A stretch of DNA of 57,815 nt, from contig JBKPCS010000077.1 in the NCBI GenBank assembly GCA_046727495.1, positions 1 through 57,815 on the forward strand. The letters are read 5' to 3'. The position numbers were made by a program, and so were the translations under genes. Every line of letters starts with the position of its first letter. Position 1 is the stretch's first letter. This document shows positions 5,270 through 32,545 of the stretch, piece by piece. The notes beneath the pieces are model-generated. The model worked only from the letters and a program-made list of their open reading frames with translations. It searched no databases and was not told where the DNA came from. The DNA is from a bacterium (GTDB lineage Bacteria > Verrucomicrobiota > Verrucomicrobiia > Chthoniobacterales > JAFAMB01).

Positions 5270-5333
5270 CGATTCGGTATTCGGACAACGGTGGACCGAA
5301 GACGGGCAACAGCCCCGAAAGCATTCGGGGCTG
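5270..5333 (-). repeat. GCCCCGAA-loop-TTCGGGGC hairpin plus degenerate heptamer run after the priA stop
   Basis: CAGCCCCGAA-AGCA-TTCGGGGCTG at 5310-5333; the same hairpin occurs at 8221, 19058 and 32375. Confidence 0.7.
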
Positions 5334-5342
5334 AAAGCGCTG

Positions 5343-7559
5343 CTACATCAACTGTTGGGGATCGACATCCACCGTCACGATAACTTCCTCCGGGAATGTT
5401 AATTTATCGAGGATCGCCCGGATCGTCTTACTGAGACGGCGGATCGCTTTCGTCCGCATCAGAATCTGGTACCGATAGTAGCCCTTTGAACGCTCGATCG
5501 GCGCTGGCACCACCGGATGCAGCGTGGTCGATGAATCCAATTGTTCGCTGATCCTGCGGTGAAGCGTTTCGCCGCTGAATTCGGCGCGCCGTTGATGCTC
5601 GGAGCGAATGTGAATCATCAAGAGATGACAAAATGGAGGGTACCCGCACCGTTCTCGAAAATCGTTTTCCTGTTCCCAGAATCCTTCAAAATTGTGATGG
5701 CGGGCAAACTGGATCGACGGACTAAATGGAGTCGCACTCTGAACATAAACTTCGCCTGCCATATCGCCGCGACCAGCGCGTCCAGCCACCTGTGTCAGTA
5801 ATTGGAACGTTCTTTCACCGGCCCGGAAATCCGGCATGTGCAAAGCGACATCGGCATTGATAATTCCAACTAGTGTGACGTTGGGAAAATCCAGTCCTTT
5901 CGCTATCATCTGTGTGCCGATAAGGATATCGATCTTGCCGGTGCGGAACGCTTGCAGCGTGTGCCGGTAAGCGTCCTTTCGGGACATGGAGTCAGCGTCC
6001 ATCCGCGCTACTGCGGCTTTTGGAAACAACTTCTGGACGATGCCTTCGACCTTTTGAGTTCCGTAACCGGCATACCGGATCGACGGGTCTCCGCATTTGG
6101 GACATTTCCGGGGCGCAACGGCGACATGACCACAGAGGTGACATTTCAGCCGATCTTCCTGAAGATGAAACGTCAATGCCACCGTGCAGTTTGGGCACTC
6201 GCACACATGGCCGCACTGGTTGCAAACCAGAGACGTTGAATAGCCGCGGCGATTGAGAAAAAGTATTGTTTGTTCTTTTTTCGCGAGACGATCTTCGATA
6301 GCGGTTCCCAGACCTTGAGAGATCACCGGCAATTGCTTTTGCTTCAGATATTCCTGACGCATGTCGACAACCCGAATGAGGGGAAGCTGCCGGTCGTCAA
6401 TGCGAGCTGTCAATCTTACCAGGCGATATTTGCCGATCTTTGCGTTGTGATAGCTCTCCAGTGACGGTGTCGCGCTTCCCAGCACAACCGCACATTGTTC
6501 GAACTGCGCGCGAACAACTGCCAGGTCGCGAGCGTTATAGCGTGGCGCTTCTTCTTGTTTATAAGAAGTCTCGTGTTCTTCATCGACTACGATTAAACCG
6601 AGCTGATCGATCGGCGCGAACACTGCGCTTCGGGCGCCAATGGCGATCTGGGCGCGCCCGCTGCGGAGCTTGTGCCATTCGTCATGTCGTTCACCGGCCG
6701 ACAGATGGCTATGAACCACGGCGATCCGGTCAACCGGGAAACGCATTTTGAACCGTTCAACGGTCTGCGGAGTCAGTGAGATTTCCGGAACCAGCACCAG
6801 AGCGCCCAGTCCACGATTCAAGCATTCCTGGATCGCCTGCAGATAAATTTCTGTTTTCCCGCTACCGGTAATTCCGTGAATCAAGATTGGTTGGCTGCTC
6901 CGCTTCTGAATTGACTCGATCACAACACCAAGCGCCGCCGTTTGTTCAGGATTCAGAATAAGCGGCCCACTGGCAATGAACTGCTCCTTCGCATACGGAT
7001 CGCGATCGAGGTTCTCCAGCTGCATCCAGAGCAGTCCTCGATCGACCAGCTGTTGGATCGTTCGGTCAGTAGTCATTGCTTTTAGCTGAAGCTCTTTCCA
7101 GCGGACCGGGCCGGCCAATTCGATCACGTGGCGGAGTACGTCGGCCTGGCGCGGAGCTTTCTTGGCTAGCGTCGCGAGCTCCGTTTCATCAATTGGACGT
7201 TGCAACGAAAGAACACGTTCTCGTTTGAATCCCAGCTGAGCTTTGCGAATCACCTGGGGCAGCACCGATCTGATCGATGTTTCGATCGGGCAACAATAAT
7301 ACTCCGCCATCCAGCGAGCTAATTTGAGAAGACGATCATTTAGAATCGGCGTTTCGGAAACCAGTTCCAAAATCGACTTTGGATTTGGCACCGATGGCGT
7401 GTCGACGACGGCGACAACTGTTGCTAGTATTTCGCGTGAACGCAGCGGAACTTTTACTCGAGAGCCGATGTGAACGTTGTTGGTCCACGGCTCGGGAACG
7501 GCATAATCTAGCTCTTTATCTGTGGGGTCATCCGTGATGACCCGAACGTACTGCTGCAT
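5343..7559 (-). CDS. priA: Primosomal protein N' (replication restart helicase)
   Basis: GITGSGKTE Walker A, LVPEISLTPQ, VDEEHE, SATPSLES, LNRRGY, four CxxC pairs, GTQMIAKGLDFP, QVAGRAGR, DVDP end. Confidence 0.98.
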   Translation of the reverse strand: MQQYVRVITDDPTDKELDYAVPEPWTNNVHIGSRVKVPLRSREILATVVAVVDTPSVPNPKSILELVSETPILNDRLLKLARWMAEYYCCPIETSIRSVLPQVIRKAQLGFKRERVLSLQRPIDETELATLAKKAPRQADVLRHVIELAGPVRWKELQLKAMTTDRTIQQLVDRGLLWMQLENLDRDPYAKEQFIASGPLILNPEQTAALGVVIESIQKRSSQPILIHGITGSGKTEIYLQAIQECLNRGLGALVLVPEISLTPQTVERFKMRFPVDRIAVVHSHLSAGERHDEWHKLRSGRAQIAIGARSAVFAPIDQLGLIVVDEEHETSYKQEEAPRYNARDLAVVRAQFEQCAVVLGSATPSLESYHNAKIGKYRLVRLTARIDDRQLPLIRVVDMRQEYLKQKQLPVISQGLGTAIEDRLAKKEQTILFLNRRGYSTSLVCNQCGHVCECPNCTVALTFHLQEDRLKCHLCGHVAVAPRKCPKCGDPSIRYAGYGTQKVEGIVQKLFPKAAVARMDADSMSRKDAYRHTLQAFRTGKIDILIGTQMIAKGLDFPNVTLVGIINADVALHMPDFRAGERTFQLLTQVAGRAGRGDMAGEVYVQSATPFSPSIQFARHHNFEGFWEQENDFRERCGYPPFCHLLMIHIRSEHQRRAEFSGETLHRRISEQLDSSTTLHPVVPAPIERSKGYYRYQILMRTKAIRRLSKTIRAILDKLTFPEEVIVTVDVDPQQLM

Positions 7560-7574
7560 TTTTGCCGTAGTCTA

Positions 7575-8222
7575 ATGGGTTTGGAGCAAAGTCGAAAGTG
7601 GAAGAGATGGGGCTGGTTTTTGGTGAAGCTGGCCTTCGTTATTGTGGCGTCGGGCGCGACAGCTATCTGCTACCTGATAGTGCGATCACAGGATCCGTTG
7701 TACGTCCTTCGCGAACTTAAGAATTGGGCGGACTATCGACGGTTTGACGCGCTGATTGCCAATGTTGGGAAACAATACAATGTCGACCCGCGCCTGATCA
7801 AAGCCGTCGTGTGGAGAGAGAGCCGGTTCCAAGCTGACATGGTTGGGCGTCACGGCGAACGCGGTCTCATGCAGGTCTCCGAAGTCGCCGCGCGCGATTG
7901 GGCCATCGCTAAAGGGGTTCCGAATCCGTCGCCGGAACAATTGCTTCAGCCTGAACTGAACTTGGAGGTTGGCAGCTGGTACCTGGGCAAAGCTGTACAA
8001 CGTTGGAATAGCCAGGATGATCCGGTGCCCTTCGCTTTAGCCGAATATAATGCCGGCAAAAGCCGGGTAGATCGCTGGATCCGGTTGGCGGCCCAGAAAT
8101 CGAATGGGCAACCCGTAACGTCGGCAAGGTTCCAGGACGCGATCGATTTTCGTTCGACCGCCCGTTACGTCCGCACGATCCTGGCCCGGTACGATTTCTA
8201 CAAACGAAGAGGCCCGTTGTAG
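7575..8222 (+). CDS. Membrane-anchored lytic transglycosylase (SLT domain)
   Basis: N-terminal TM segment; AVVWRESRF, GLMQV, NLEVGSWYL, ALAEYNAG, TARYV. Confidence 0.92.
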   Translation: MGLEQSRKWKRWGWFLVKLAFVIVASGATAICYLIVRSQDPLYVLRELKNWADYRRFDALIANVGKQYNVDPRLIKAVVWRESRFQADMVGRHGERGLMQVSEVAARDWAIAKGVPNPSPEQLLQPELNLEVGSWYLGKAVQRWNSQDDPVPFALAEYNAGKSRVDRWIRLAAQKSNGQPVTSARFQDAIDFRSTARYVRTILARYDFYKRRGPL

Positions 8223-8352
8223 CCCCGAAAGGCTTCGGGGCTGTTATCGGTTATCGGTTTTCCGTTTTCGGTTTTCAGTTCTGGCCCCGGACCACGCATG
8301 AGCGGAGCCCCACCAACCGAAAACTGAAAACCGAAAACTGAAAACCGATAAC
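8221..8352. repeat. Composite element: GCCCCGAA hairpin plus inverted arms of degenerate (GTTTTCG)n heptamers
   Basis: Hairpin overlaps the slt stop; left arm GTTATCG GTTATCG GTTTTCC GTTTTCG GTTTTCA (8243-8280); right arm AACCGAAAACTGAAAACCGAAAACTGAAAACCGATAAC (8315-8352). Confidence 0.85.
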
Positions 8353-8366
8353 TAACGCCGAAGGCC

Positions 8367-9227
8367 CTATCGCAGCGCCCATACCGTCCGAATAACCTGG
8401 CTGGCCGCATGAACATCGTGGACCCGAAAAATGTTCGCTCCCCGCCGCATGCCGGCGACGATGCAGGCGACGGTTCCGGCATCCCGATCGTTTGGATCCG
8501 GCAAGCCCAGAACCTCTCCGATTACAGTTTTGCGCGAGACTGGCAATAGTATTGGCCGTTCGAAGGAGTGCAACCGGTCCAGGTTTCGATAGATACGCAG
8601 GTTGTCGCTCTTTTGTTTGGCGAAATCGATTCCAGGGTCGAGAACAATTGCTTCCCGGGGAACTCCGGCGGCTTCCGCTTGAGCTATCTTCTCGCTGAAA
8701 AACGTTTCCAGCGTGTGAAAGATGTCGGCGTAATATTTGTCCGTATTTTTTTGTTTCGGTGAACCGACCGAGTGCATGATGACAAGCGCAGCTCCATGTT
8801 TAGCTGCGGCCACTGCAGTCTCATCGGAGGGGAGCGCGCTCATGTCGTTCAGGAAATCGGCTCCAGCGGCCAGCAAGGTTTCGGCAACCCTTGGCCGCCA
8901 TGTGTTAACGGAGAGCAACGGTGGGTATACTTGCTCCTGGTCGATAGGCTGAACACCAGACAAACATTCGGAAAAGCGTTCAACAAATGGAAGGGTCCGC
9001 TCGATCTCTTCCGTTTCAGTGATCGGCAGCCGATTGGTGCGAGCGCTTTCGCCTCCGACGTCGATGATATCTGCTCCAGCCGCTAGCTGGTTTCGCGCCC
9101 GAACAATTGCTTCATCGATGTTTAACGTTCCGTCGTTGGAAAAGGAATCGTGGTTGATGTTCACAATTCCCATGATCAAGGGGCGTCGGGGAAATGTGAT
9201 AATCCTGTGTCGTGCGCGCAGCTTCAC
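8367..9227 (-). CDS. folP: Dihydropteroate synthase
   Basis: IMGIVNINHDSFS, IDVGGESAR, LDPGIDFAK, SRKTVIG, IFRVHDV; start overlaps the stop of the upstream gene. Confidence 0.95.
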   Translation of the reverse strand: MKLRARHRIITFPRRPLIMGIVNINHDSFSNDGTLNIDEAIVRARNQLAAGADIIDVGGESARTNRLPITETEEIERTLPFVERFSECLSGVQPIDQEQVYPPLLSVNTWRPRVAETLLAAGADFLNDMSALPSDETAVAAAKHGAALVIMHSVGSPKQKNTDKYYADIFHTLETFFSEKIAQAEAAGVPREAIVLDPGIDFAKQKSDNLRIYRNLDRLHSFERPILLPVSRKTVIGEVLGLPDPNDRDAGTVACIVAGMRRGANIFRVHDVHAASQVIRTVWALR

Positions 9228-10006
9228 AGGGCAACTTCGATTCGTTTCCGCCTTTCAAAGCGGGCGGTTGTGGTGTAGCCGGCTGCTCGCGCTAGCTCAC
9301 GCGCGGACTCAAATTCATAACCCACTTCATCCGGCGCATGCGCATCGGAGTTGATCAGCATGGCGACGCCGGCCTCGTGCGCGAGCCGGATGAATTCGAG
9401 CTCCGGATAAATTTCGCCTGCCGGTTTTCGCAGGCCAGCGGTGTTGATTTCAAAGGCTACCTCGCGCTTTGCCATGGCTCTCACCGCCGGTTCGTAGTAC
9501 CGCCTTAAATCGCCATTCGGTCGGTAGCCAAACTTCTTGGGAAGATCTGGATGCGCCACGAAATCGAAGAGGCCACTCTCGATGCAACGAACATACTGTT
9601 TCCAGTACAAGTCCCAGATATCGTCGACGCTGTTCGTTGAGAACCGCGAAAGATGCTTAGGATTATCGACATCCCAGCCGGGAGCGATGTAGTGAACGCT
9701 GCCGATCAAGTAATCCCAATCAGCCTTTCCGGCCAGCTCTTCAATCCACTGTTCCTTTCCCTCGATATAGTCGCATTCAAGCCCGAGCCGGACGGTGATG
9801 CCTTTCGATCGGACCCGATCCACCATCGCAATGTATCGCGGCAACTGTTCAATCGACATGCGCCAGTCATCGAACGGTTCGGGCATCGGGTTATGATCAG
9901 CAAATCCGATCTCGTCCAGACCGATTCGTTGTGCCGCGGCGACGTACTCCTCGGGCTCGCCGGTCGCGTGACGGCATAGGGGCGTGTGGATGTGGTAATC
10001 CCTCAT
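9224..10006 (-). CDS. hisJ: Histidinol-phosphatase, HisJ family (PHP domain)
   Basis: DYHIHT..C.HA, GFADH, GLECDY, IGSVHY, AHPDL, EINTAGLRK, SDAHAP. Confidence 0.88.
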   Translation of the reverse strand: MRDYHIHTPLCRHATGEPEEYVAAAQRIGLDEIGFADHNPMPEPFDDWRMSIEQLPRYIAMVDRVRSKGITVRLGLECDYIEGKEQWIEELAGKADWDYLIGSVHYIAPGWDVDNPKHLSRFSTNSVDDIWDLYWKQYVRCIESGLFDFVAHPDLPKKFGYRPNGDLRRYYEPAVRAMAKREVAFEINTAGLRKPAGEIYPELEFIRLAHEAGVAMLINSDAHAPDEVGYEFESARELARAAGYTTTARFERRKRIEVAL

Positions 10007-10581: not shown

Positions 10582-12459
10582 ATGCGAAAATTCTTTGTGG
10601 TATTTCTTCTGTTCCCCGCGCTTTCTTCGCTTGCCGACGTGGACCTTGGAAAACCAATTACGCTCCAGGCGGATGCAAACCAGATTTCACGAAAAATCGT
10701 TCACGCTCATCTAGTGATACCGGTGAAACCAGGACCGCTGACACTATTCTATCCCAAATGGATTCCCGGCGAGCATGCGCCAACCGGACCAATTCAGGGT
10801 CTGGTTGATTTGCAGCTTTCTGCGAACGGCCAACGCGTTCCCTGGCGGAGAGACCTGGTAGACCTTTACACGATTCGCTGCGAGGTCCCAGCAGGCACGG
10901 CGAATCTGGATATCGATCTGAACTACTTGATTCCAGTTGACGTGGAAGGCTACTCAAGTGCGGCGGCGGCATCCGCCATGCTTGGGATCCTCAATTGGAA
11001 TCAGGTTATCCTTTATCCTTCGGGCACCGAACCGGACCACTTGACTTATCAAGCGAGTTTGAAGGTCCCCCAGGGATGGCGTTTCGGTACGGCACTGCCA
11101 ATTGCCAGTAAGGGAGATACCGTTCAATTCAAGCCGGTCTCATTGACTACTCTGGTGGATTCGCCGGTTGTGATGGGACTCTATTACCGGAATATCCCGT
11201 TAACCGAAGAATCGGACGGCCCGAGCAGCGAAATGGACATCGTAGCCGACTCGGCGGCCGGACTGGAATTGCCCGACAAAAAAATCGCTCAGTACCGGCA
11301 ACTCATTACGCAGGCAAAACAGCTCTTCGGCGCAACCCATTACCAGCATTACCACTTTCTCTGCACGTTGAGCGACTCGACGTTTCATGATGGGATCGAA
11401 CATCACGAATCGAGTCTGGACACAATGCCGGAGAATGGGTTTACCGACAAAGACGAGCTGGCAACGGCACAAGACTTGTTGCCCCATGAATATGTCCATT
11501 CCTGGAACGGCAAATATCGGCGTCCGGCAGATCTGGCGACGCCCGATTTTCAGCAGCCGATGAAAGATGATCTCCTCTGGGTTTACGAAGGGCTCACCGA
11601 ATATCTGGGCAGCTTTGTCCTGACTGCGCGGTCAGGGTTGCGCGACAAGGAAATGAGCCGGGATTACCTTGCCGGAATCGCCGCCCAGTTGGATCAGGAG
11701 AGCGGCCGTACCTGGCGGCCTCTGCAGGACACGGCGGACAACGCCTCGTTCCTTTATGATTCGCCCAAACAATGGCGTGACCGCCGGCGTTACGTTGATT
11801 TCTATCCCGAAGGCGTCCTCCTTTGGCTGGAGGCCGATGCCCTTATCCGGGAAAAGACCAATGGTGCAAACTCACTCGACAATTTTTGTCACGCTTTCCA
11901 CGGAGGCGAGAACAGCGGTCCGATGTTGAAAACCTACGTCGTAGACGACGTGATCAACACTTTGAACGACGTTGTGCCTAACGACTGGCACAACTTCTGG
12001 ACCGAGCGGCTCAACTCGGTTTCTCCCCGGGCGCCGATGAAAGGGATCGAATCGACCGGCTGGCGAGTTGTCTACAACGATCAACCAAATCGTGTTCTGG
12101 AGACCATGGCTAAATCGGAGAAGGTCACCGATGAGTGGTTTTCGTTAGGACTCCTGATCGGGGACGACTCCTCGATCGTCGATGTCCGGGGAAATTCTGC
12201 GGCAGACGCGGCCAAACTTGCGCCCGGCATGAAAATCATCGCCGTGAATTCCCGTTCTTATTCTGCGGACCGATTGAAAGAAGCAATCGGCGAAGCAGCG
12301 AAAGGATCAAAGCCGCCGGTCGAATTGTTAGTTAACAACGCGGACTATTTTCAGACGTTCAAACTCGACTACCACGACGGCCCGCGCTACCCGCACCTGG
12401 AACGCGATCCATCGCGCCCTGATCTGTTGTCAGAGATCCTGAAGCCGAGAACGAACTAG
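10582..12459 (+). CDS. M61 family glycyl aminopeptidase with PDZ domain, secreted
   Basis: Signal peptide from ATG 10582; PKWIPGEH, LVDSP, GIEHHES, HEYVHSWNGK (HExxH), LWVYEGLTEY; C-terminal PDZ (SAADAAKL..GMKIIAVN). Confidence 0.93.
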   Translation: MRKFFVVFLLFPALSSLADVDLGKPITLQADANQISRKIVHAHLVIPVKPGPLTLFYPKWIPGEHAPTGPIQGLVDLQLSANGQRVPWRRDLVDLYTIRCEVPAGTANLDIDLNYLIPVDVEGYSSAAAASAMLGILNWNQVILYPSGTEPDHLTYQASLKVPQGWRFGTALPIASKGDTVQFKPVSLTTLVDSPVVMGLYYRNIPLTEESDGPSSEMDIVADSAAGLELPDKKIAQYRQLITQAKQLFGATHYQHYHFLCTLSDSTFHDGIEHHESSLDTMPENGFTDKDELATAQDLLPHEYVHSWNGKYRRPADLATPDFQQPMKDDLLWVYEGLTEYLGSFVLTARSGLRDKEMSRDYLAGIAAQLDQESGRTWRPLQDTADNASFLYDSPKQWRDRRRYVDFYPEGVLLWLEADALIREKTNGANSLDNFCHAFHGGENSGPMLKTYVVDDVINTLNDVVPNDWHNFWTERLNSVSPRAPMKGIESTGWRVVYNDQPNRVLETMAKSEKVTDEWFSLGLLIGDDSSIVDVRGNSAADAAKLAPGMKIIAVNSRSYSADRLKEAIGEAAKGSKPPVELLVNNADYFQTFKLDYHDGPRYPHLERDPSRPDLLSEILKPRTN

Positions 12460-12859
12460 CTGGAGTTGCTCCTAAGGCGCTACGCCAATTTTAAGGCAGG
12501 CACCCGACTACTTAACGTAACAGGCAGCGCGGCTTACCCCTTTTTGGGCATTCCCTCCGAGAACGAAACACGTTAGGACAGCTTTGGTATATTGGTTAGT
12601 GGCTTACGAGAGCGCCGACATCCACTATGTCGATGTGCTGGGGATTTCTTTGCTGTTTCTTGTACTTGCAATAATCGATAGTCTTACCGATTCGAAAATC
12701 TACTTCCTTGGCTGGAAGCTTAGTTACCGAGCGCGGATAAAGCGATTCCAGCACTCGATGAAGTGATCCGTAGGCTCGATGTGAAAGTCCGTGGCAACTG
12801 GAAATGGCAGAACGTGCGCGTTCCTTGAAAAGAAAGCTGCTGACAAGTCCCGACGACGC

Positions 12860-14497
12860 TCAAAGCCAGCTTGAAGCTTGGGAAAACGAGTCGGCGAAGA
12901 ATCTCGGCCTGGAAAAGTTCCGATGATCCGATCCGAGCCTGGAGCGAGAGGAGCCAGTCAGGATGGATCCTACCGTCATTACGAGCGCAATGATCACCGG
13001 GACCAGCAGGTTTAAGGCATACCGGTCCATATAATACACGCAAATCATGTTTGCGACCCACATCGCAAGGCCTAGCAACAGGGTTATAACAATCACGATA
13101 AAGTCGGAGAGCGCCATCTGCCCCAAAGCAAAACCGATGATCGCTACGAAAGAAACCACCGTGTAAGAAAGCCAGAGCGGCATCGCTTGCCAGAGGCCCA
13201 GATATGGATCCAAGATCGCTGTCGCGTATACCTGATTCGCATCGTCTGCTCTTAATCTGGTGTATCCCTTCAGATATTTCCAAAGATCAGGGCGACGGAC
13301 CATGTCTTCTGCAGTCCAAAGATGGGAATAGAAGGGCGAAAGTGCGACTTTCTGTTGGTTCGTTGACAGCCCGGTCCACACATCGTTGCCGATCACGGCC
13401 AGAAGGGTGGGATGAAACGTTCCCAGATAAGCAAGTGATTCGACAAGAATCAATCTGTCGCTCTTCTCTAGCGCCTCGGCATTAGGCACCCCGCTTTCGC
13501 GAAGTGCTGACGTGAGCTCTTCTCCTGTTCCTTTTGGACCCAGCCCTATTGATGCCTGAAGCTCAATCGCTTCGCGCACAAAAGGATCATTCTGCCTGCT
13601 GGCCAATTGCTGCGCTAGGCTAGTCCTCTGTTCCGGTGAAAGCTCTTTCAGAAATGAAGACACTCGATCGCTAAGAGTCCGGCCTATAGTGGGACGATAT
13701 TTCTGTCCGATAGATGCCATCAGTGCTCGCGGGATAATCAGGTTTAGCGCCACGATGAATACTCCGATAGAACACGCAATAATGACCGAACGCCAATTGT
13801 GTCTCCTTGCCGATTTTAGCGGATGATTGATTAGAGCTAGCAGTACCATGATCGTGGGTAACCAGATAATCAGGAGCACATTCAAATGCCGGCTTCCAAT
13901 TGCAAAGAATAGACCGGCGGCGTAAATGATCCACGCCGGTACCAGAGGTTGTTTAACAAGGCTTATTCCAGCGGCGAAAACTGTAATGAGTGCAATTGTG
14001 CTCCAAGATTCCGAACCGCAGGTCTGCGCCTGCGCGTACAGGCCGCCCATTGATGCAAAGATTGAAGCGCACAGGATGGATCTTGTTCTGCTGGAGCCAG
14101 CGATCGTTGTAACCACGTAGGCCAGAGACACAATCAGACCAACGTGCTGCAACACAACCAAGAGGTAGAGCCCCAAGTCGGTGGGCGTCTGCTGGGAGAG
14201 TAAGTTGTGATGAAAACTGTGCCCGCTAATCGCCGAAGCTAAATTGAAAGGGATCCGCGAAAGAAAGCAGTAGATCGGGGGATATTGAAGAATATTTACC
14301 GCGTCGGCCCGGGCAGCCAGTTGCCAGAAAGCGTCGATGTCCTTCCACAGCGGTGGATACCGGTAGATTAAATAAAGCGAGGGAACCACCAAAATGGCTA
14401 TCCACCATCGCTGCCCGAAGTACTCGAGGAGAGTTCGTTGCAGACTTGAGGTGTTGCCGGCTTCTTGGGTTGAGAAAGAGGTTTGAGAGCAGCGCAA
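12860..14497 (-). CDS. Polytopic membrane protein, putative GT-C glycosyltransferase (paralog of 36106..37761)
   Basis: Many TM segments, PPLWKDID acidic motif after TM1, large periplasmic loop; AGGAG before the TTG start. Confidence 0.75.
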   Translation of the reverse strand: MRCSQTSFSTQEAGNTSSLQRTLLEYFGQRWWIAILVVPSLYLIYRYPPLWKDIDAFWQLAARADAVNILQYPPIYCFLSRIPFNLASAISGHSFHHNLLSQQTPTDLGLYLLVVLQHVGLIVSLAYVVTTIAGSSRTRSILCASIFASMGGLYAQAQTCGSESWSTIALITVFAAGISLVKQPLVPAWIIYAAGLFFAIGSRHLNVLLIIWLPTIMVLLALINHPLKSARRHNWRSVIIACSIGVFIVALNLIIPRALMASIGQKYRPTIGRTLSDRVSSFLKELSPEQRTSLAQQLASRQNDPFVREAIELQASIGLGPKGTGEELTSALRESGVPNAEALEKSDRLILVESLAYLGTFHPTLLAVIGNDVWTGLSTNQQKVALSPFYSHLWTAEDMVRRPDLWKYLKGYTRLRADDANQVYATAILDPYLGLWQAMPLWLSYTVVSFVAIIGFALGQMALSDFIVIVITLLLGLAMWVANMICVYYMDRYALNLLVPVIIALVMTVGSILTGSSRSRLGSDHRNFSRPRFFADSFSQASSWL

Positions 14498-14881
14498 AAT
14501 GATTAACTCCTTGGAGAGGCCACGATTCTAAGCAAAGGCAAGTCGCCGCCAAATATTTTTTGCTAAGTACTTTAGCGGAACCAGCTTGGATCTTATCCGG
14601 ATAAACGCCAGCTTTTTTGGTCCGGCGAAGTATCTAGACGTGGCGATAGCGTTCGGATTTCGGGTCAAACCGATCCACGGTTAGTGGCCGCGTGGGAATA
14701 GAAAAATGAAGCGCTTTGGGCACTGGTTTGACGGTGAGATTCACCAGGCGCCATTCTGAGACCGTAAGGCGACTTGTCAATTGCGGCGGCCGACGCGGGA
14801 GTTTGCGCAAGACGTTGAATATATTCTTCCCGGTTGTTTTGGTCGGAAGTACTGTTTTTGTGGTGATAAGAACCGAAGCTT

Positions 14882-17640: not shown

Positions 17641-18660
17641 ATGGTACCACTCAGTCAAATGTTTACGGTTGCCACTTACGTCATGGGGCAAAAACTCCGT
17701 GGTCGGAAGCGGTATCCATTGGTTCTGATGCTTGAACCGCTCTTTCGTTGCAACCTGGCATGCGCAGGTTGCGGCAAGATCCAGTATCCGGAGCATATCC
17801 TGAGCCGGCGATTGACTCCGGAGCAGTGCTGGGCTGCCGCCGAAGAGTGTGGTGCACCGATGGTTTCGATTCCGGGCGGGGAACCGCTGATCCATCCTGA
17901 GATCGGCGAGATCGTGGCTGGGTTGGTTGAACGGAAGAAATATATTTATCTCTGCACGAACGCGCTTCTGTTGAAGCGCAAACTGGATCTGTTCAAGCCC
18001 TCGCAGTATTTGACCTTTTCGGTTCACCTCGACGGTCTGCAAGAGGAACATGACGAAGCGGTATGCCGCGACGGTACGTACAAAACGGCAGTCGAGGGGA
18101 TTAAAGAAGCGCTTAAACGCGGGTTTCGTGTGACCACCAACACGACGTTGTTTGAAGGCGCGAATCCGGAACGAGTCCGAGAATTTTTCAATGAAGCAAT
18201 GGCGCTGGGTGTTGAGGGGATGATGTTGTCTCCTGGATACAGCTACCAAAAAGCACCCGATCAAGAGCATTTTCTGGCGAAAAAGCGTAGTACCGAGCTG
18301 TTCAAACAGATCCTGGGCAATGCTGACAAAAGCTGGCGATTCAACTTGTCTCCGTTGTTTCTAAAGTTTCTCCAGGGCGAAATCGACTACGATTGCACCC
18401 CTTGGGGTATGCCGACCTACAATATCTTCGGGTGGCAAAAACCGTGTTACCTGCTCCAGGATGGCTACGCCAAGAGTTTTGCGGAGCTGATGGAGCTCAC
18501 TGCATGGGAAAAGTACGGTCCGAAGAGTGGTAACTCGAAGTGCAGCAACTGTATGGTGCATTCAGGGTACGAGGCGACCGCAGTGGACGACACTTTTGGC
18601 TCGTTGGAAGGATTTTTCCGGACTGTTCGCGCAACCCTGGCACCTAACCGCCCTCTGTAA
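17641..18660 (+). CDS. hpnH: Adenosyl-hopene transferase HpnH (radical SAM)
   Basis: YPLVLMLEPLFRCNLACAGCGKI (CxxxCxxC), SIPGGEPL, YLCTNA, FSVHLDG, CTPWGMPT, C.NCMVHSGYE. Confidence 0.96.
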   Translation: MVPLSQMFTVATYVMGQKLRGRKRYPLVLMLEPLFRCNLACAGCGKIQYPEHILSRRLTPEQCWAAAEECGAPMVSIPGGEPLIHPEIGEIVAGLVERKKYIYLCTNALLLKRKLDLFKPSQYLTFSVHLDGLQEEHDEAVCRDGTYKTAVEGIKEALKRGFRVTTNTTLFEGANPERVREFFNEAMALGVEGMMLSPGYSYQKAPDQEHFLAKKRSTELFKQILGNADKSWRFNLSPLFLKFLQGEIDYDCTPWGMPTYNIFGWQKPCYLLQDGYAKSFAELMELTAWEKYGPKSGNSKCSNCMVHSGYEATAVDDTFGSLEGFFRTVRATLAPNRPL

Positions 18661-19058
18661 TGCCTACGTTTGAAAAAACCGAACCGGCGGCACCGCAGGA
18701 AGAAACGCTTCAAGGCCGCGAGTTTGTTCTGTCAACTGATGAAGAACGGAACGCTGCGTTTGAACAAGCATTCGATTACCGCGGTGATGTGACCCTGGAA
18801 CTGCGTTCCGGGGAAAGAATCGAAGGTTACCTGTTCAATCGTGAACCCACAGGGAATCCACCGTCCGTTTCACTTCTCCTAAAAGGCTCGGATCAGCCGC
18901 GACTGGTCGCCTACAACGAGATCGCGAAACTAGTGTTCAGCGGCAAAGACGCTGCCGATGGCAAATCGTATGAGGCTTGGAAAGCTAAAAAGAAAGCTGA
19001 ACGCGACGCCGAGGCCAAGCGGATCGAGGAGAAAATGAAAGCTGACGGCTACCTTTAG
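18660..19058 (+). CDS. Hypothetical protein coupled to hpnH (possible Sm/LSm-like barrel)
   Basis: TAATG stop/start overlap; AFDYRGDVTLELRSGERIEGYLFN, GKDAADGKSYEAW, charged helical tail. Confidence 0.8.
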   Translation: MPTFEKTEPAAPQEETLQGREFVLSTDEERNAAFEQAFDYRGDVTLELRSGERIEGYLFNREPTGNPPSVSLLLKGSDQPRLVAYNEIAKLVFSGKDAADGKSYEAWKAKKKAERDAEAKRIEEKMKADGYL

Positions 19059-19276
19059 CCCCGAAAGCTTTCGGGGCAGTTATCGGTTAACGGTTTTCGG
19101 TTAGATCATTCCGCGCCCTGCGTGCTGGGAAACCCAAGACCGAACTCAGGCACTCGAGCCGATTCGGTTCTCGGGAAGCTCTCGGATAGCAACGGTGTTG
19201 CTTCCAGCTAGGGTCTTGTGCCGCTGAGGGGCTACCGAACAGAAAACTGAAAACCGAAAACCGATAACCGAAAACC
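19058..19276. repeat. Composite GCCCCGAAAGCTTTCGGGGC plus inverted heptamer arms
   Basis: Perfect palindrome 19058-19077 fused to the stop codon; GTTATCGGTTAACGGTTTTCGG left arm; (AACCGAA/AACTGAA)n right arm 19234-19276. Confidence 0.85.
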
Positions 19277-19294
19277 AAGCGCGCTAAAGGCGCG

Positions 19295-20158
19295 CTAATC
19301 CCCGCCCCAGCGGCGTTTAAGCATTTCTTTGGCTGCGTCACGCCGGATTTCGAGTTCGTCTTGGAGCTGTTCGATCTGCTTGATCTGGGCGCGTAACTGT
19401 TCCTTGGCCCAGCCTTCCGCGCGATCTTTACGATCTTCCAGAGCGTCTTTCTCGCGGTCGAGCGCCTGCTTTTTGGCCTCCCATTCCCGGTCGAACGCGT
19501 CGAATGCTGCTTCGCGAGAGCGCTTAAAAGCGCCATCATCACTAAAGGCGTTGCGCGAGGCGAATCCGGTCTGAGCGAAAGCTCGCTGCAGGAATCCGGG
19601 CTGATTGAATGCGACGGTACGGACCGGAGAAGAAGCGAATTGATTTCGCGGCGATGCCCAGTAGGCGCGCCCGAGCTGTGGATGTCCGTAAACATGCACC
19701 GGTGTGCCGATCGCGACTGCCTGGAAGAATGCAGTTGCATACTGTTGCGGCATGCGAACGCATCCATGTGAATCCGGGTGGCCCGGAAGGTACCCGGAAT
19801 GCATCCCTATCGCAGGCTGAAACTGCATGTAATAACGCATCGGCGCGTTCACAAATTCGAGTCCCGGAGGAACGGCCATATCTTTGTCGGCATCGGGAAT
19901 GACAATCTGCTTCGTCATCGGGTTCCCGATAAAACCGTAAAAGCTCGATGAATGGTTGATGTCTTTATCGGTGATTTTGAACGTTCCAGTCGGCGTTTCG
20001 TGTCCCGGGCGCCCGGAGCAAACCGGGGATTGCAGTACGACTCGGCCCCGATCGATGAGGTAGGCGGTCTGATTGGTGAGATCGATCTCAATTCGCTGTT
20101 GGGCCAACGCACTGGAAAGGAACAACAACGGCAACAAACAAATGTACGCGGCTTTCAT
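19295..20158 (-). CDS. L,D-transpeptidase (YkuD) with C-terminal coiled coil
   Basis: Signal peptide; SGRPGHETPTGTF, HSGYLPGHPDSHGCVRM catalytic motif; charged helical tail. Confidence 0.9.
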   Translation of the reverse strand: MKAAYICLLPLLFLSSALAQQRIEIDLTNQTAYLIDRGRVVLQSPVCSGRPGHETPTGTFKITDKDINHSSSFYGFIGNPMTKQIVIPDADKDMAVPPGLEFVNAPMRYYMQFQPAIGMHSGYLPGHPDSHGCVRMPQQYATAFFQAVAIGTPVHVYGHPQLGRAYWASPRNQFASSPVRTVAFNQPGFLQRAFAQTGFASRNAFSDDGAFKRSREAAFDAFDREWEAKKQALDREKDALEDRKDRAEGWAKEQLRAQIKQIEQLQDELEIRRDAAKEMLKRRWGGD

Positions 20159-20408
20159 CCTACGCTTTTACCCCGGCGGCCTACCCATAACGCATTTTCT
20201 ATGGTTGGTCGAGGAATTAACGCTGTCAGCCGCCTTCGCTAAGGCTGCGGAGGACAGGCCGCCGGCATCGCCGCAACGACGGGAGTGAACACCGGATTGG
20301 GACGCCTGGAACGGCCCTGCGGGCGATGAAAATGCCCTTATTTGATCTTGTCTGGCTAAATTTTGGACCAGGTGCGCCGAATTCAGATGGGGGGAGACAC
20401 GTCGAAAC

Positions 20409-27803: not shown

Positions 27804-28832
27804 ATGCACCTCGGCTCACTCAAACCAGATTCCGCGGACGCTGCGTCTAACCTCGCTTCCTGGATTCTTGCGGGGCTTGCACTCTTTTTGGTGCTTTATC
27901 TGCATCTCTTCCCGGCGCTGGCCGCCGGTTGTCTAGTGTACCAGCTTGTTCAGCTAGCGGTTCCGCTCATCCAGCGACGTCTGTCGGGTCCGCGATCGCG
28001 CTTGGTCGCGGTAGGTGGTCTGGCGATCGTTACTGTTGGGATCGTTACTCTCGCGATATTTGGAATCGTCGCTTTTCTTAAGAGTGAAACCGGAAACCTG
28101 GAGGTCCTTTTCCAAAAGCTGGAGCACATTCTCATCGAGGCTCGCACCAAGGTGCCAGCCTCCGCGGCGGATTATTTGCCCGGTAATGTTGACGATCTAA
28201 AAGCGATGGCGTCGGACTGGGTTGGCGAACACTCAAAAGAAGTCCAGATGCTGGGCAAAGAAGCGATGCGTGTGTTTGTGCGAATGCTGATCGGGATGGT
28301 GATCGGTGCGCTGATCTCGCTGCATGAAGGCGGACCGGCCTTCTTCGCCACGCCGTTTATTGCGGCGCTGACAAACCGCGCCACTCGATTCGGAGCGGCC
28401 TTCCGAAACATTGTTTTTGCGCAGATCAGGATCTCCGCGGTCAACACCGTTCTAACTGCGATCTTTCTTTTGGTCATTTGCCCTCTCTTCGGGGTCCAAT
28501 TGCCATTAGCCAAGACGTTGATCGCCGTCACATTTCTGGCCGGTCTGCTGCCAATTATCGGCAACCTGATTTCAAATACCGTAATCGTGACCGTCGCTCT
28601 TTCAGTATCGCTGACCGCCGCGGTTGGTGCGCTCCTATTCCTGATCTTGATCCACAAGCTGGAATATTTTCTAAACGCCAAGATTGTCGGTTCCAGGATC
28701 CATGCACACGCCTGGGAGCTCTTGTTGGCGATGATTACGCTGGAAGCCGCATTCGGCGTCGCCGGCCTCATCGCTGCTCCAATCTACTACGCGTACATCA
28801 AGAGCGAACTCGCTGACGCGAAGCTGATATGA
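27804..28832 (+). CDS. AI-2E family transporter
   Basis: TM-rich; AQIRISAVN, GLLPIIGNLI, KLEYFLNAKIVG, FGVAGLIAAP. Confidence 0.88.
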   Translation: MHLGSLKPDSADAASNLASWILAGLALFLVLYLHLFPALAAGCLVYQLVQLAVPLIQRRLSGPRSRLVAVGGLAIVTVGIVTLAIFGIVAFLKSETGNLEVLFQKLEHILIEARTKVPASAADYLPGNVDDLKAMASDWVGEHSKEVQMLGKEAMRVFVRMLIGMVIGALISLHEGGPAFFATPFIAALTNRATRFGAAFRNIVFAQIRISAVNTVLTAIFLLVICPLFGVQLPLAKTLIAVTFLAGLLPIIGNLISNTVIVTVALSVSLTAAVGALLFLILIHKLEYFLNAKIVGSRIHAHAWELLLAMITLEAAFGVAGLIAAPIYYAYIKSELADAKLI

Positions 28833-28911
28833 AGGAGACAGGAGACAGAATACAGGAGACAGGAGATGGGCCGGGAACCTCTTGTATTCTGTATTCTGTC
28901 GCCTGTATTCT
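28833..28911. repeat. Heptamer (GGAGACA/GAATACA)n inverted-arm element
   Basis: GGAGACAGGAGACAGAATACAGGAGACAGGAG ... TATTCTGTATTCTGTCGCCTGTATTCT; near-identical left arm at ~21137-21170. Confidence 0.8.
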
Positions 28912-28916
28912 TGACC

Positions 28917-29684
28917 ATGTCTCGGCTTGTTTTAGTCACCGGAGCGGCAGGAGGCGTGGGGAGTAGCATCGTCGCAAAGTTTTGCGCGCTTGGTGACACG
29001 GTGTTAGCGAATGACGTTTCTGACGAGCGGCTGACGAAACTGGATCGGGTTGATGGTCGCGTTATCAAGGTCGTCGCGGATATCACTGACGGTGCTGGCT
29101 TTCGCGAAGCGGTGACGAACGCTGCTCAGGGGCTCGGCCCAGTAGATGTCGTCGTGGCCAACGCGGGCGGTGCGTCGTCGCCGACTCTGCGGAAAACAAC
29201 CATCGATTCCTGGCGGCGGGACATCGAGCTCAACCTCCACGGTACGATGCACACGGTTGAAGCGGTTCGCGAAGGGATGATGACAAAACGCAAAGGTGCC
29301 ATCGTTGCGATCAGCTCAGTTAACGCCTTGCTGACGCTGGGCCATCCGGCCTACAGCGCAGCAAAAGCAGGTTTAATCAGCTATGTCAAAGCATTGGCTA
29401 CCGAACTAGGCAAATACGGTATCCGGGCCAACGCGATTCTTCCCGGAACAGTACGAACTCCTATTTGGCAACAGAGAGTTGAAAAGAATCCGACCATTTT
29501 CGAGCAGCTGCGTAAATGGTATCCGCTTGGCCGGGTCGTTGAGCCGGAGGATGTTGCTGAAGCGGTGATTTTTCTGGCCTCCGACGCGGCGAAGGCAATT
29601 ACCGGAGTGGCTCTGCCAGTCGATTGTGGGTTAACGGCCGGTAATCTGCCATTGGCATCAGAGCTAACCGTCGAGGAGTGGTAG
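28917..29684 (+). CDS. Short-chain dehydrogenase/reductase (SDR)
   Basis: TGAAGGVG, NAG, SS, YSAAK, NAILPG. Confidence 0.93.
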   Translation: MSRLVLVTGAAGGVGSSIVAKFCALGDTVLANDVSDERLTKLDRVDGRVIKVVADITDGAGFREAVTNAAQGLGPVDVVVANAGGASSPTLRKTTIDSWRRDIELNLHGTMHTVEAVREGMMTKRKGAIVAISSVNALLTLGHPAYSAAKAGLISYVKALATELGKYGIRANAILPGTVRTPIWQQRVEKNPTIFEQLRKWYPLGRVVEPEDVAEAVIFLASDAAKAITGVALPVDCGLTAGNLPLASELTVEEW

Positions 29685-29774
29685 GGAAGAGGGTCCGGCT
29701 TCCGGCTTTCTGCCTCCGCCAAGGCTACGGCGGGCAAGCCGGGTTCTGGGAGAGGCGCCCACTCGCACTCGCAT

Positions 29775-30959
29775 TCACACTCGCGAGAGCGCAGGCCCGA
29801 TCCTTTCGAAATCATGTTTCCGGAGCAGACCCCAATTGTAGAATGCAAAATCTCGGATACCGAGCTGCGAGATGCCTTGAACTGCTTCAGCGAGCTCTTG
29901 GCCATCTGCAAGGTCGGGAGTGCCGGGCCGAAGAATGGCGCGAATCTTTGTGGGGTCGTTCCCGGAGCGATGGAGTGTATCCCACGCATCGGCGATCGCT
30001 CGTTGCGCAGTCGGTTCATAGAAAGGGACCTCGAGATAGTCCACGATTTCTGTCAGCGCCCTGATGTCACTTCCTTCAATCCAGGTGGAGGCAGTCGGCC
30101 GCTGGATTGTCGGTATAATGGCGAGTTTTCCTGATACGCCCGCACGGATTTGTTTCACCAGTTCCGAAACCCTCCGGCTTCGCCATTTGAGATATGCAGA
30201 GAGTTCTTCGTCGCTCAGAATATCCGCTGCGGTCCATACAGCTGCGACGTCAGCGGAGACATCGACCGGTGATCGTAAGTAGTTATCGACCTTGCTCACC
30301 ACGCTTTTCCGCAGCGCGTGACTGTCAATGCCGGCCTCACGTTTCGATTCGTTCAGGCAATGATCGCAAAAGCATAATGCGAGCAGAACACCCATCCAGG
30401 AACTGATTTTCGTTTGGGCGAACTCGTGGTGATATCCATGCGTGTACGGCAAAAATCCGATCGTTTCGAGAACGATGCTCGCGACCGGTAGCGATCTCGA
30501 TAGATCTTGAACCAGCGCTAAACCGAACTCAGCAACTTCCGGGTTAACCGGGCACAAGCTATACGGATATCGATCGCCCCATGCGTTCCGTACTGTGGCA
30601 TCCGGGTAAGCGTTGCCGAGGCGCGAATTGTGAAAAACAACAGTCCAAGCATGTACGCCCAGCCGGTCTGCTTGTACCAGCTCAGCTGCGACTTGCCTTA
30701 ACTTCTCGTCCGGATGTGGAACCGGTTTGATTCTGCCATAGCGCTTTAAGCTCGGCTCAAAGTAGACCGTTCCGTCCTCTGGGAAATAGACACGGCTGGA
30801 ACCGCCCCTGGTACGCAGAAACTTTCCGGCATGATAACTGACGGCGATAGTGACTTCGGTCAACCGCTGGGAAGCGAGGACATCGGCAAACTTTGTCGGC
30901 CCGCTTTCCATCACATCCCACGGGTACGCGTACACGCTGCGGTAAGGAGCAGAAGGCAT
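29775..30959 (-). CDS. Hypothetical TIM-barrel protein (glycoside-hydrolase-like)
   Basis: YAYPWDV, SYHAG, VYFPEDG, HAWTVVFHNSRLG, LCPVNPEV, CFCDHC, FYNWGL; divergent from the sugar ABC genes. Confidence 0.7.
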   Translation of the reverse strand: MPSAPYRSVYAYPWDVMESGPTKFADVLASQRLTEVTIAVSYHAGKFLRTRGGSSRVYFPEDGTVYFEPSLKRYGRIKPVPHPDEKLRQVAAELVQADRLGVHAWTVVFHNSRLGNAYPDATVRNAWGDRYPYSLCPVNPEVAEFGLALVQDLSRSLPVASIVLETIGFLPYTHGYHHEFAQTKISSWMGVLLALCFCDHCLNESKREAGIDSHALRKSVVSKVDNYLRSPVDVSADVAAVWTAADILSDEELSAYLKWRSRRVSELVKQIRAGVSGKLAIIPTIQRPTASTWIEGSDIRALTEIVDYLEVPFYEPTAQRAIADAWDTLHRSGNDPTKIRAILRPGTPDLADGQELAEAVQGISQLGIRDFAFYNWGLLRKHDFERIGPALSRV

Positions 30960-31138
30960 CGATCGGGATTGTAGGGTGGTGGCTGCCTGCTCAGCAAGCT
31001 TGGCTCTACCGTTTTGGCGAGCCTATCCCCGGAACATGGACCCGAAACCCGGAACCCTAACGCCTGTAGACATCCGACATTGTTTCTTGCTAGCCTGTAG
31101 TCGGCGTTTTGCCACAGGACTTTCAAACCTCTAATTCA

Positions 31139-32374
31139 ATGATGAAAATGTTCTCCTCGAAGCAGTTTTCTGTCGTCGCCGGCTGGGTTGGTTTGTTGTT
31201 GATGACCGCGGTGTTCGCAGTCAATGCCGAAACCGTGCGTGTCACCATTCCTTTCTATAGCAAGGAGACGGAACCGTATTTCAAGAAGATGGCCAGCGAG
31301 TTCAAGCAAAAGAACCCGGACATCGATGTTCAGATCGAAATCGTCAATTGGGACAACCTGCTGCAGAAACTCACCACCGATATCGCGGCGAACGCTAACG
31401 CAGATGTTTCGATTATCGGCACCCGCTGGCTGGCCGATTTTCAAAAGCAGGATCTGGTTGAGCCGCTTGATGGATATATGGACGCGGCGTTCAAAGATCG
31501 ATTTATCAAATCGCTATTTGACTATGCCACCATTGGAGGGAAAACCAACGGCTTGCCAATTGCCGCTTCGGCGCGCGCTCTTTATTTTAACAAACAGTTG
31601 TTCACGAAAGCGGGGTTCCCGGACGGCCCCAAAACGTGGACAGATGTCGAGCAAGCGGCGAAAAAAATCAAAGATGCTGGTTCGTACGGATTCGGATTAC
31701 AAGGGAAGGAAATCGAAACGGACACTTTTTGGTATTATGCTTTGTGGTCGTTTGGCGGCGACATCGTCAAAGACTGCAAAGCGGTTTTCGATTCTGGCGC
31801 CGGCGTTAAGGCGGTGGAAGAATACAAGAAACTCATCGACGAAGGCTTGACGCAACCTGGTGTGACTTCTTACAGCCGCGAGGATGTCCAGAACTTGTTT
31901 AAGCAGGGCAGAGTAGGGACGGTTATTACCGCGCCATTCCTGATCAACCAGCTGAAATCGGATGCTCCCGATCTGGAGTACGGCATCACCGCGATTCCGT
32001 CGGACAAAGGAGACCTGTCAATGGCGGTGACGGATACGATCGTGATTTTCAAGAACTCGAAAGTGAAAAAATCGGCCTGGAAATTTCTGGATTTCCTTTT
32101 CACCAAAGAGCCCCGAATCGCTTTTACCAAAGGGGAAGGGTTCTTGCCTACGACTAAGGGGGAAGCGGAGGATCCTTACTTTACGCAAAACGAGCGCCTG
32201 CAGATTTTCGTGAAGCTCTTGGAGAAAGCGAAGTTTACACCATTGGTAAGCGGCTATGATGCGATGAGCGACGCGGTGGTTCGAGCGCTGCAGAGCGTTT
32301 ATTTAGGGAAAGCGAAGCCAGCCGATGCTCTAAAACAGGCGGCTCAAGAAGCAAACGCGGCTATCTGCAAATGA
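31139..32374 (+). CDS. Carbohydrate ABC transporter substrate-binding protein (CUT1)
   Basis: Signal peptide; F...NPDIDV, GLP....RALYFNK.LF, PKTW. Confidence 0.9.
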   Translation: MMKMFSSKQFSVVAGWVGLLLMTAVFAVNAETVRVTIPFYSKETEPYFKKMASEFKQKNPDIDVQIEIVNWDNLLQKLTTDIAANANADVSIIGTRWLADFQKQDLVEPLDGYMDAAFKDRFIKSLFDYATIGGKTNGLPIAASARALYFNKQLFTKAGFPDGPKTWTDVEQAAKKIKDAGSYGFGLQGKEIETDTFWYYALWSFGGDIVKDCKAVFDSGAGVKAVEEYKKLIDEGLTQPGVTSYSREDVQNLFKQGRVGTVITAPFLINQLKSDAPDLEYGITAIPSDKGDLSMAVTDTIVIFKNSKVKKSAWKFLDFLFTKEPRIAFTKGEGFLPTTKGEAEDPYFTQNERLQIFVKLLEKAKFTPLVSGYDAMSDAVVRALQSVYLGKAKPADALKQAAQEANAAICK

Positions 32375-32545
32375 CCCCGAAAGCTTTCGGGGCCCGTTAT
32401 CCGTCCACCGTCAACAGTCCGCCGTCCACCGTTACCGATGTCTGACAACGCTCACCAACGGAAGGCGGAAGACGGTAGACAAAAGACGGAAGACAGGGGA
32501 CGAAGGACGGAAAACGGTCGACGGAAGACGGTAGACGGTAAACGG
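32375..32545. repeat. CCCCGAAAGCTTTCGGGG plus inverted heptamer arms enclosing the permease start codon
   Basis: Left arm (CCGTCCA)n 32401-32437; ATG 32438; right arm (GACGGAA/GACGGTA)n ~32458-32545 is translated. Confidence 0.8.

What the first reader, a model, noticed from the sequence alone, without database searches (positions are those of the whole stretch)
5270..32545. Stop-codon-anchored composite element: GCCCCGAAAGCTTTCGGGGC cap plus heptamer arms (4 copies)
Seen: the same ~20-nt hairpin at 5310, 8221, 19058 and 32375. It begins at or overlaps a stop codon in three copies and lies ~10 nt after the priA stop in the fourth. It lacks a U-tract and is followed directly by a degenerate heptamer run. 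In at least three copies an inverted heptamer run closes a long stem around a unique spacer. The heptamer unit differs between copies (GTTTTCG versus CCGTCCA) while the cap is conserved. Inference: a modular non-autonomous element or RNA-processing/termination module with a fixed recognition cap and interchangeable repeat stems.
Basis: partly seen in the sequence, partly recalled or inferred. Interest (0 to 1): 0.7.

Follow-up and report, generated by a model that had tools for sequence, protein, structure and literature searches.

The report
Roaming palindrome overwrites hairpin tips
The four 'caps' are scattered copies of an 18-letter DNA palindrome that stands in place of the tips of other short hairpin repeats and of the anticodon arm of spare tRNA copies beside a tiny nuclease gene, which likely spreads it; they are not the fixed end of one stop-codon element.

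Summary
The 18-nt cap has 57 near-exact copies in this genome (0 in a 2-Mb control). It sits beside only 20 of 540 intergenic heptamer arrays. It also occurs in at least two unrelated hairpin-repeat families that have capless siblings. Orthologous sites at priA and at 32375 show the same stop-hairpin-heptamer element with 5 or 15 host letters where the window has the cap: a replacement with variable joints, not an insertion. Closeness to stop codons comes mostly from the host repeat. The same palindrome replaces the anticodon arm of a partial tRNA copy behind an 80-90-aa GIY-YIG nuclease gene, here (contig C197) and in many Verrucomicrobiota-class genomes. Palindrome type follows the nuclease tree. 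Flanks of scattered caps match the donor's tRNA flanks for about 4 nt each side. Likely mechanism (inferred): nuclease-triggered, microhomology-guided patching of hairpins. Closest known: Ssn/NTS, but the SRM motif test fails. This scan has found the tRNA-GIY-YIG cassette on other DNA (11 notes) and the heptamer hairpins in this genome; my paper searches found no description of it.

The parts
5313..5330 (-). Cap copy 1 (asymmetric loop form), 12 nt after the priA stop; stands where close relatives have 5 letters of the host hairpin's 3' arm
5331..5345 (-). priA stop codon and the retained left half and loop of the host GC-rich hairpin
5282..5312 (-). Short GTYNNCN heptamer arm after cap 1; no partner arm found
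8223..8240 (+). Cap copy 2 directly after the stop of the lytic transglycosylase gene; shared with L043 and G001, other close relatives carry unrelated repeats
8243..8352 (.). Inverted heptamer arms 8243-8280 and 8315-8352 with a 34-nt spacer
19059..19076 (+). Cap copy 3 (perfect palindrome) directly after the stop of ORF 18660-19058
19079..19275 (.). Inverted heptamer arms 19079-19102 and 19245-19275 with a spacer of about 145 nt
32375..32392 (+). Cap copy 4 directly after the stop of a sugar ABC transporter binding-protein gene; replaces a whole 15-nt host hairpin seen in run X4
32396..32550 (.). Inverted heptamer arms (about 32396-32432 and 32507-32550) around a unique spacer
34240..34298 (+). 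Capless sibling inside the window: stop codon, intact small hairpin with the same loop, then a heptamer arm of the same family

Best explanation
The four caps are dispersed copies of the 18-bp palindrome that replaces the anticodon arm of a partial tRNA copy behind a small GIY-YIG nuclease gene; in this window they stand in place of 5 to 15 letters of a stop-linked hairpin-plus-heptamer repeat, and the nuclease likely started their spread by nicking hairpin-forming single-stranded DNA that would then be repaired from a capped copy through 2-4 matching letters on each side. Shown: sequence identity with the cassette palindrome, presence in unrelated host hairpins, replacement with variable joints, flank likeness to the donor's tRNA flanks, and the link of palindrome type to nuclease clade. 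Inferred: that the nuclease acts on these sites, the microhomology repair step, and that further spread inside the heptamer family goes by ordinary gene conversion. The stop-codon position is inherited from the host repeat. This genome's own nuclease copy is probably dead, so the 57 copies are likely relics.
For: 57 copies with at most 2 mismatches, 56 outside modelled genes, 0 in a 2-Mb Markov control. Capped and capless members of two unrelated hairpin families: 8 capped and 3 capless of 11 true members among 15 rows, 5 letters replaced; 3 capped and 12 capless of 15 rows, 4 letters replaced. priA orthologs L040, L041 and L042 have the host element without the cap. At 32375 a contig of run X4 has an intact 15-nt host hairpin, G002 has a cap joined 11 nt further out, X6 has half a cap. 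The genome's only small GIY-YIG gene lies between tRNA-Lys(TTT) and a capped tRNA-Lys copy. Of 38 homolog loci 32 have a tRNA within 400 nt and 18 the cap. Palindrome type clusters on the nuclease tree, 0 of 500 shuffles as low; 18 cap-type proteins plus one without capped copy form a 98/91 group. Among 124 loci from other genomes, 7 of 12 tRNA-like cap contexts have the nuclease within 300 nt against 1 of 112 others. Flanks of the 57 caps match the donor's 4+4 letters at 4.42 of 8 against 2.59 at random intergenic sites, and the match ends at 4 nt.
Against: No biochemical or RNA data. Co-occurrence is weak: in 31 family genomes the exact 16-mer was found in 5 of 7 with the nuclease and 8 of 24 without it; G001 and G002 (61% and 69% complete) have caps but no nuclease hit. 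The flank test was devised after I had seen the flank consensus, host families are not independent, and the orientation bias falls from P=0.035 (17:6) to P=0.12 (14:6) after collapsing like flanks. In other genomes the flank match is weaker, 3.61 against 2.57. Direction of change at 32375 is not fixed: the capless X4 contig (204 nt, depth 3.3) is the closest relative, so it may have lost the cap by conversion. The window's own nuclease has Ser for the Tyr kept in 35 of 37 homologs, its donor cap holds a second nested cap, and its tRNA is inverted.
Confidence: 0.6

Rival explanations
1. The palindrome comes from the cassette, but it spreads without the nuclease: host repair or gene conversion copies it between hairpin repeats that share short matches, and the cassette is only one more host.
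For: Variable joints and partial caps; caps concentrate in one repeat family whose long arms allow conversion (18 of 198 against 2 of 342); caps occur in genomes with no nuclease hit; the local nuclease looks inactive.
Against: Palindrome type follows the nuclease tree and always sits at the same place in the tRNA copy. The same 18-mer recurs in unrelated contexts across many phyla, which is hard to explain without a specific factor.
Confidence: 0.22
2. One reading: cap, arms and spacer are one composite non-autonomous element or RNA module whose cap is the fixed recognition end, anchored on stop codons.
For: 18 of 57 caps lie in the order stop-cap-arm; at the transglycosylase gene cap and arm are shared by this genome, G001 and L043.
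Against: 228 capless against 22 capped arms of the same family; the share near a stop does not differ clearly (95 of 228 against 13 of 22, P=0.12). Orthologous elements lack the cap. Caps occur in unrelated hosts.
Confidence: 0.06
3. The caps near stop codons are kept by selection as REP-like RNA hairpins that stabilise the mRNA or stall ribosomes, whatever their origin. This can be true beside the best explanation.
For: Caps avoid gene starts (2 of 57 within 25 nt); 7 of 30 armless caps are still near a stop (P=0.03); REPs within 15 nt of a stop are reported to stall ribosomes (passage of PMC5082802).
Against: Sites turn over between close relatives: 1 of 57 related loci has the cap at the transglycosylase stop. 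Loop orientation relative to the gene is mixed. There is no U-tract.
Confidence: 0.08
4. The cap is a REP moved by a RAYT (Y1 HUH) transposase.
For: Short, extragenic, palindromic, often at stop codons, as described for GTAG REPs (passages of PMC3733652); the genome has Y1 transposase genes.
Against: None of the three Y1 loci has a cap within 500 nt. GTAG stands at 2 of 114 cap flanks. Host letters are lost at each site.
Confidence: 0.04

Closest known systems
Ssn single-strand nucleases with NTS/SRM hairpin repeats (Chenal et al. 2025, PMC11893778; abstract, passages and Discussion read)
   Same: Single-domain GIY-YIG gene under 100 aa beside a short palindromic repeat that is also scattered through the genome; each nuclease type goes with its own repeat.
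   Different: The cap does not fit the SRM consensus (0 of 57 caps, 0 of 37 cassette loci). The proteins lie on a long branch apart from four NTS-flanked GIY-YIG proteins. The paper's main text never mentions tRNA. Replacement of host hairpin tips is not described in the parts I read.
Phage T4 SegB, free-standing GIY-YIG homing endonuclease in a tRNA cluster (PMC2330249; abstract read)
   Same: GIY-YIG gene that lives beside tRNA genes and targets a tRNA motif.
   Different: SegB recognises a 27-bp site at the T-loop motif and homes between phages. The abstract reports no duplicated, palindrome-plugged tRNA copy and no dispersed repeat. No relative of the cassette protein was found in viral contigs with this single query.
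GTAG/CGTC-tagged REPs and REPINs (PMC3733652, PMC3116915; abstracts and passages read)
   Same: Small extragenic palindromes, often at or overlapping stop codons; some REPs sit inside other small palindromes.
   Different: No tag, no RAYT association, mostly single copies, and host letters are replaced.
Intergenic heptamer repeats with inverted pairs of Xanthomonas, Nostoc and Beggiatoaceae (PMC4692102 passages; PMC4679880 abstract)
   Same: The arms: intergenic, 7-nt period, often within 50 nt of a stop, often as inverted pairs.
   Different: This covers the host repeat only; several unit families coexist here, and the parts I read describe no cap.

Membership tests
Ssn/NTS-SRM | Single-domain GIY-YIG protein shorter than 150 aa | tested here: met
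   86 aa, PF01541 over the cut-off; weak match to UPF0213 structure 1YWL
Ssn/NTS-SRM | Gene flanked by a hairpin repeat that is also dispersed in the genome | tested here: met
Ssn/NTS-SRM | Repeat fits the SRM consensus of the paper | tested here: not met
   0 of 57 caps and 0 of 37 cassette loci
Ssn/NTS-SRM | Protein belongs to the cd10448 clade | tested here: inconclusive
   CDD is not on hand. As a stand-in, four NTS-flanked GIY-YIG proteins form their own 100/100 branch with a long stem; their placing among cassette rows is unresolved
Ssn/NTS-SRM | Sequence-specific cleavage of single-stranded DNA next to the repeat | not testable with these tools
   needs purified protein
GTAG/CGTC REP-RAYT | Unpaired GTAG or CGTC tag at one end | tested here: not met
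   GTAG at 2 of 114 flanks; CGTC not among the 30 tetramers listed
GTAG/CGTC REP-RAYT | Repeat flanks a RAYT gene | tested here: not met
   no cap within 500 nt of the three Y1 loci; genome 87% complete
GTAG/CGTC REP-RAYT | Extragenic palindrome, enriched downstream of genes | tested here: met
MITE | Fixed ends with a target-site duplication at insertion | tested here: not met
   4-15 host letters lost, joints vary
Free-standing homing endonuclease (SegB type) | GIY-YIG gene beside tRNA genes | tested here: met
   32 of 38 loci
Free-standing homing endonuclease (SegB type) | Cuts nuclease-free alleles and is inherited preferentially | not testable with these tools
   needs crosses or cleavage assays
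Intrinsic terminator | U-tract after the hairpin | tested here: not met
   at most 4 T in the next 8 nt in 25 of 25 caps near a stop
Intergenic heptamer inverted repeats (arms only) | Period-7 arrays enriched between genes, often as inverted pairs | tested here: met
   591 arrays, 540 intergenic, 108 inverted pairs

The most novel reading that the evidence does not exclude
An 85-residue nuclease and an 18-bp palindrome form a self-propagating 'overwrite' system: with no transposase, integrase or reverse transcriptase, the nuclease frees or primes a roughly 26-nt capped tRNA fragment that replaces the tip of almost any DNA hairpin with 2-4 matching letters on each side. It would be among the smallest mobile DNA units, and a natural short-oligo editing mechanism.
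Probability: 0.3. Interest if true: 0.85.

Novelty: new variant of a known kind. Interest (0 to 1): 0.55.

Why it matters
If the nuclease drives it, this explains how identical 16-20-bp palindromes turn up in unrelated repeats, tRNA copies and genes across many bacterial phyla without a transposase. It gives a directly testable enzyme-substrate pair: a cap-type GIY-YIG protein, its palindrome and three natural target hairpins with known before and after states. It would widen the Ssn concept from a nuclease that cuts beside its repeat to one that spreads its repeat by replacement.

Tried and rejected
Rfam: no match in the window. No tRNA in the window. Four-helix-bundle (PF05635) genes as the partner: 9 loci shown, most within inverted short-unit arms, none with a cap within 500 nt. 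RAYT/Y1 partner: no cap nearby. Reverse transcriptase: none found in this 87%-complete assembly. A strict sense orientation of the asymmetric loop to the upstream gene, my first impression, did not hold (12 sense, 6 antisense among asymmetric caps near stops). DNA search of the 18000-20200 region in the two same-genus genomes found only repeat matches, so there is no orthologous comparison for cap 3. No RNA holder listed. An automatic capless-sibling search with 7+6 flank letters was mostly noise. Cassette protein in viral contigs: no hit. NCBIfam: no family. The Atlas gives only unnamed GIY-YIG clusters, commonest Verrucomicrobiota. Paper searches for the palindrome's letters (0 papers), for GIY-YIG with tRNA-like or palindrome terms and for heptamer or four-helix terms listed nothing that describes this cassette; I judged those by listing and abstract start. 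The paper on Nostoc small dispersed repeats (Elhai et al. 2008) is not held, so that comparison stays open. Supplements of the Ssn paper were not read and may list such loci.
Full report
Observation. The 20-mer occurs four times in the window with 0-2 mismatches; 0.02 copies are expected by chance. The 18-nt core begins right after the stop codon at 8223, 19059 and 32375 and lies 12 nt after the priA stop. Three copies are followed by inverted heptamer arms around a unique spacer; for the priA copy no partner arm was found. There is no U-tract and no Rfam match. The window is contig C77 of a 3.93-Mb, 87%-complete assembly. Gene positions used below come from my own hexamer-model gene calls (3,624 genes).

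Genome-wide picture. There are 57 caps within 2 mismatches of three consensus forms (70 within 3; I dropped the 13 with 3 mismatches, a level that the control also reaches). A 2-Mb Markov control has none within 2. 56 of 57 lie outside modelled genes. 25 of 57 lie within 25 nt after a stop (10.4% expected) and 2 of 57 near a start. Heptamer arrays are far more common: 591 period-7 arrays, 540 intergenic, 108 inverted pairs. 20 of 57 caps touch such an array (7.3% expected), but only 20 of 540 arrays have a cap: 18 of 198 in the GTYNNCN family and 2 of 342 in the other families. With a looser arm pattern, 18 caps show the order stop-cap-arm, 9 have an arm only, 7 a stop only and 23 neither. Capless arms of this family are near a stop in 95 of 228 cases and capped ones in 13 of 22 (P=0.12).

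The cap replaces host letters. Searching for siblings of cap contexts gave three host families. (1) Stop codon, small GC-rich hairpin with a five-letter loop, heptamer arm: capless members are common, one lies in the window at 34240-34298, and capped members keep the left half and loop while 5-8 letters of the right half are gone. (2) A roughly 120-nt palindromic repeat: 8 capped and 3 capless members among 15 rows (4 rows were chance matches), 5 letters replaced, cap in both orientations. (3) A repeat ending in a GTAG-like tag: 3 capped and 12 capless of 15 rows, 4 letters replaced. Orthologous sites agree. At priA, L040 and L041 (98.8% identical over the last 80 aa) and L042 (91%) carry the family-1 element with 5 host letters where the window has 18; the more distant priA rows have unrelated sequence. 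At 32375 a 204-nt contig of run X4 (depth 3.3) has an intact 15-nt host hairpin with the same arm behind it, the strain in X6 has half a cap, and G002 has a cap variant joined 11 nt after the stop with the left half of the hairpin kept. At 8223 the cap is shared with L043 and G001, while 56 of 57 related loci lack it and X6 has 94 other letters there. The direction of change at 32375 is not proven.

Source of the cap. In same-family genomes the exact cap sits in tRNA-Lys-like copies in place of the 15 inner letters of the anticodon arm. This genome's only small GIY-YIG gene (C197, 86 aa) lies between tRNA-Lys(TTT) on the opposite strand and a partial tRNA-Lys copy plugged by a cap that holds a second cap. 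Homologs were found in 7 of 31 family genomes and 30 of 401 class genomes. Of the 38 loci fetched (two are the same place), 32 have a tRNA within 400 nt (Lys, CAT-anticodon, Arg) and 18 carry the cap behind the gene. By type, 19 of 37 have this palindrome, 13 another one at the same position, and 5 were not classed; the types cluster on the protein tree (0 of 500 shuffles as low). In a second tree without four broken or distant rows, 18 cap-type proteins and one without a capped copy form a 98/91 group. Titles were shown for 80 and include Verrucomicrobiota, Bacteroidota, Nitrospirota, Armatimonadota, Planctomycetota, Patescibacteria, Terriglobales and Bdellovibrionales, with cultured isolates among them. 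12 of the 124 are tRNA-like contexts, 7 of them with the nuclease inside the 300-nt flank, against 1 of the other 112. Many other contexts look by eye like further hairpin repeats; their empty forms I know only from memory and did not test.

Link between scattered caps and donor. The four letters on each side of the 57 caps match the tRNA letters flanking the donor cap at 4.42 of 8 (better orientation) against 2.59 for random intergenic sites, and the likeness stops at the fourth letter. In 113 non-tRNA sites from other genomes it is 3.61 against 2.57. Among 33 caps with an asymmetric loop, one donor orientation wins 17:6 (P=0.035), but 14:6 (P=0.12) after collapsing like flanks. I set up this test after seeing the flank consensus, so it is supportive, not independent.

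Mechanism (inferred). SsnA, a 94-aa GIY-YIG protein, binds its hairpin repeat in single-stranded DNA and cuts a few letters beside it (PMC11893778, passages and Discussion). By analogy, the cassette nuclease likely nicks at its palindrome or at hairpin tips, and repair from a capped copy through 2-4 matching letters on each side overwrites 4-15 host letters. At a tRNA gene this would leave the plugged copy; elsewhere it leaves lone caps, which survive where hairpins are abundant and dispensable, as in the stop-linked heptamer repeats. Conversion among the long arms can then move caps further. Against an active process today: the local nuclease has Ser for the Tyr kept in 35 of 37 homologs (that this Tyr is catalytic is recalled knowledge). 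Co-occurrence is weak: exact 16-mer in 5 of 7 genomes with and 8 of 24 without a nuclease hit, and no hit in the incomplete G001 and G002.

Comparison. It works most like Ssn/NTS but fails the SRM test (0 of 57, 0 of 37) and lies apart from four NTS-flanked GIY-YIG proteins found among 135 NTS loci, so I do not file it as Ssn. It is not a GTAG/CGTC REP, a MITE or a terminator. SegB (abstract) shares the tRNA neighbourhood only. The arms are the known kind of intergenic heptamer repeat. Paper searches listed no description of the plugged-tRNA cassette or of hairpin-tip replacement; subscription papers and the Ssn supplements were not seen. Earlier notes of this scan report the cassette in other genomes (11 findings), similar roaming palindromes and the heptamer hairpins of this genome. 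I reached the cassette from the sequence before reading the cassette notes, which then gave me the Ssn and SegB papers.

Verdict. A real feature; a new variant of a known kind; interest 0.55. What this window adds is before-and-after states that show replacement with variable joints, and flank evidence tying lone caps to the tRNA-borne donor.

Noticed in passing
G000 C156:18520-18885, C47:16130-16503, C164:18733-19101, C88, C223, C94, C193, C174 (L001-L010): Four-helix-bundle (PF05635, 23S rRNA intervening-sequence family) genes sit inside inverted short-unit arms, each copy with a different unit; several copies are broken. The empty arm pairs may be related to these cassettes.
   Followed up: partly
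G000 C197:15630-15680 (L225); also L229, L232: A second cap-like palindrome is nested in the loop of the donor cap; similar nesting occurs in two other genomes.
   Followed up: partly
G000 C197:16025-16098: The tRNA-Lys(TTT) is inverted relative to the nuclease gene; in all other loci with a tRNA it is on the same strand.
   Followed up: no
G010 and G018: These same-family genomes have their own expanded one-mismatch variants of the palindrome (88 and 73 copies), including a tandem array with 23-nt period at G018:C340:8751-8906.
   Followed up: no
L155:301-318: The cap sits in a stretch that looks like the 3' domains of a group II intron (label recalled, not tested), beside another short palindrome.
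   Followed up: no
L114, L223: In a Flavobacterium isolate the cap ends tandem units of about 450 nt that by eye hold a small GIY-YIG-like ORF, too distant for the tblastn cut-off used.
   Followed up: no
window 5260-5271: A 12-nt stretch resembling the cap's core lies about 45 nt beyond cap 1 and can pair with it.
   Followed up: no
window 12460-14880: A contig of run X2 joins 12459 to 14881 with one letter between, so this 2.4-kb segment is absent in that strain.
   Followed up: no
window 8238-49556: The window has 20 period-7 arrays in all, most without a cap.
   Followed up: partly
window 49493-53251: Large ORF with a below-cut-off match to type VI secretion TssM.
   Followed up: no
G000 C94:65865-66074 and C194:11301-11501: Two elements carry a cap at both ends.
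   Followed up: no
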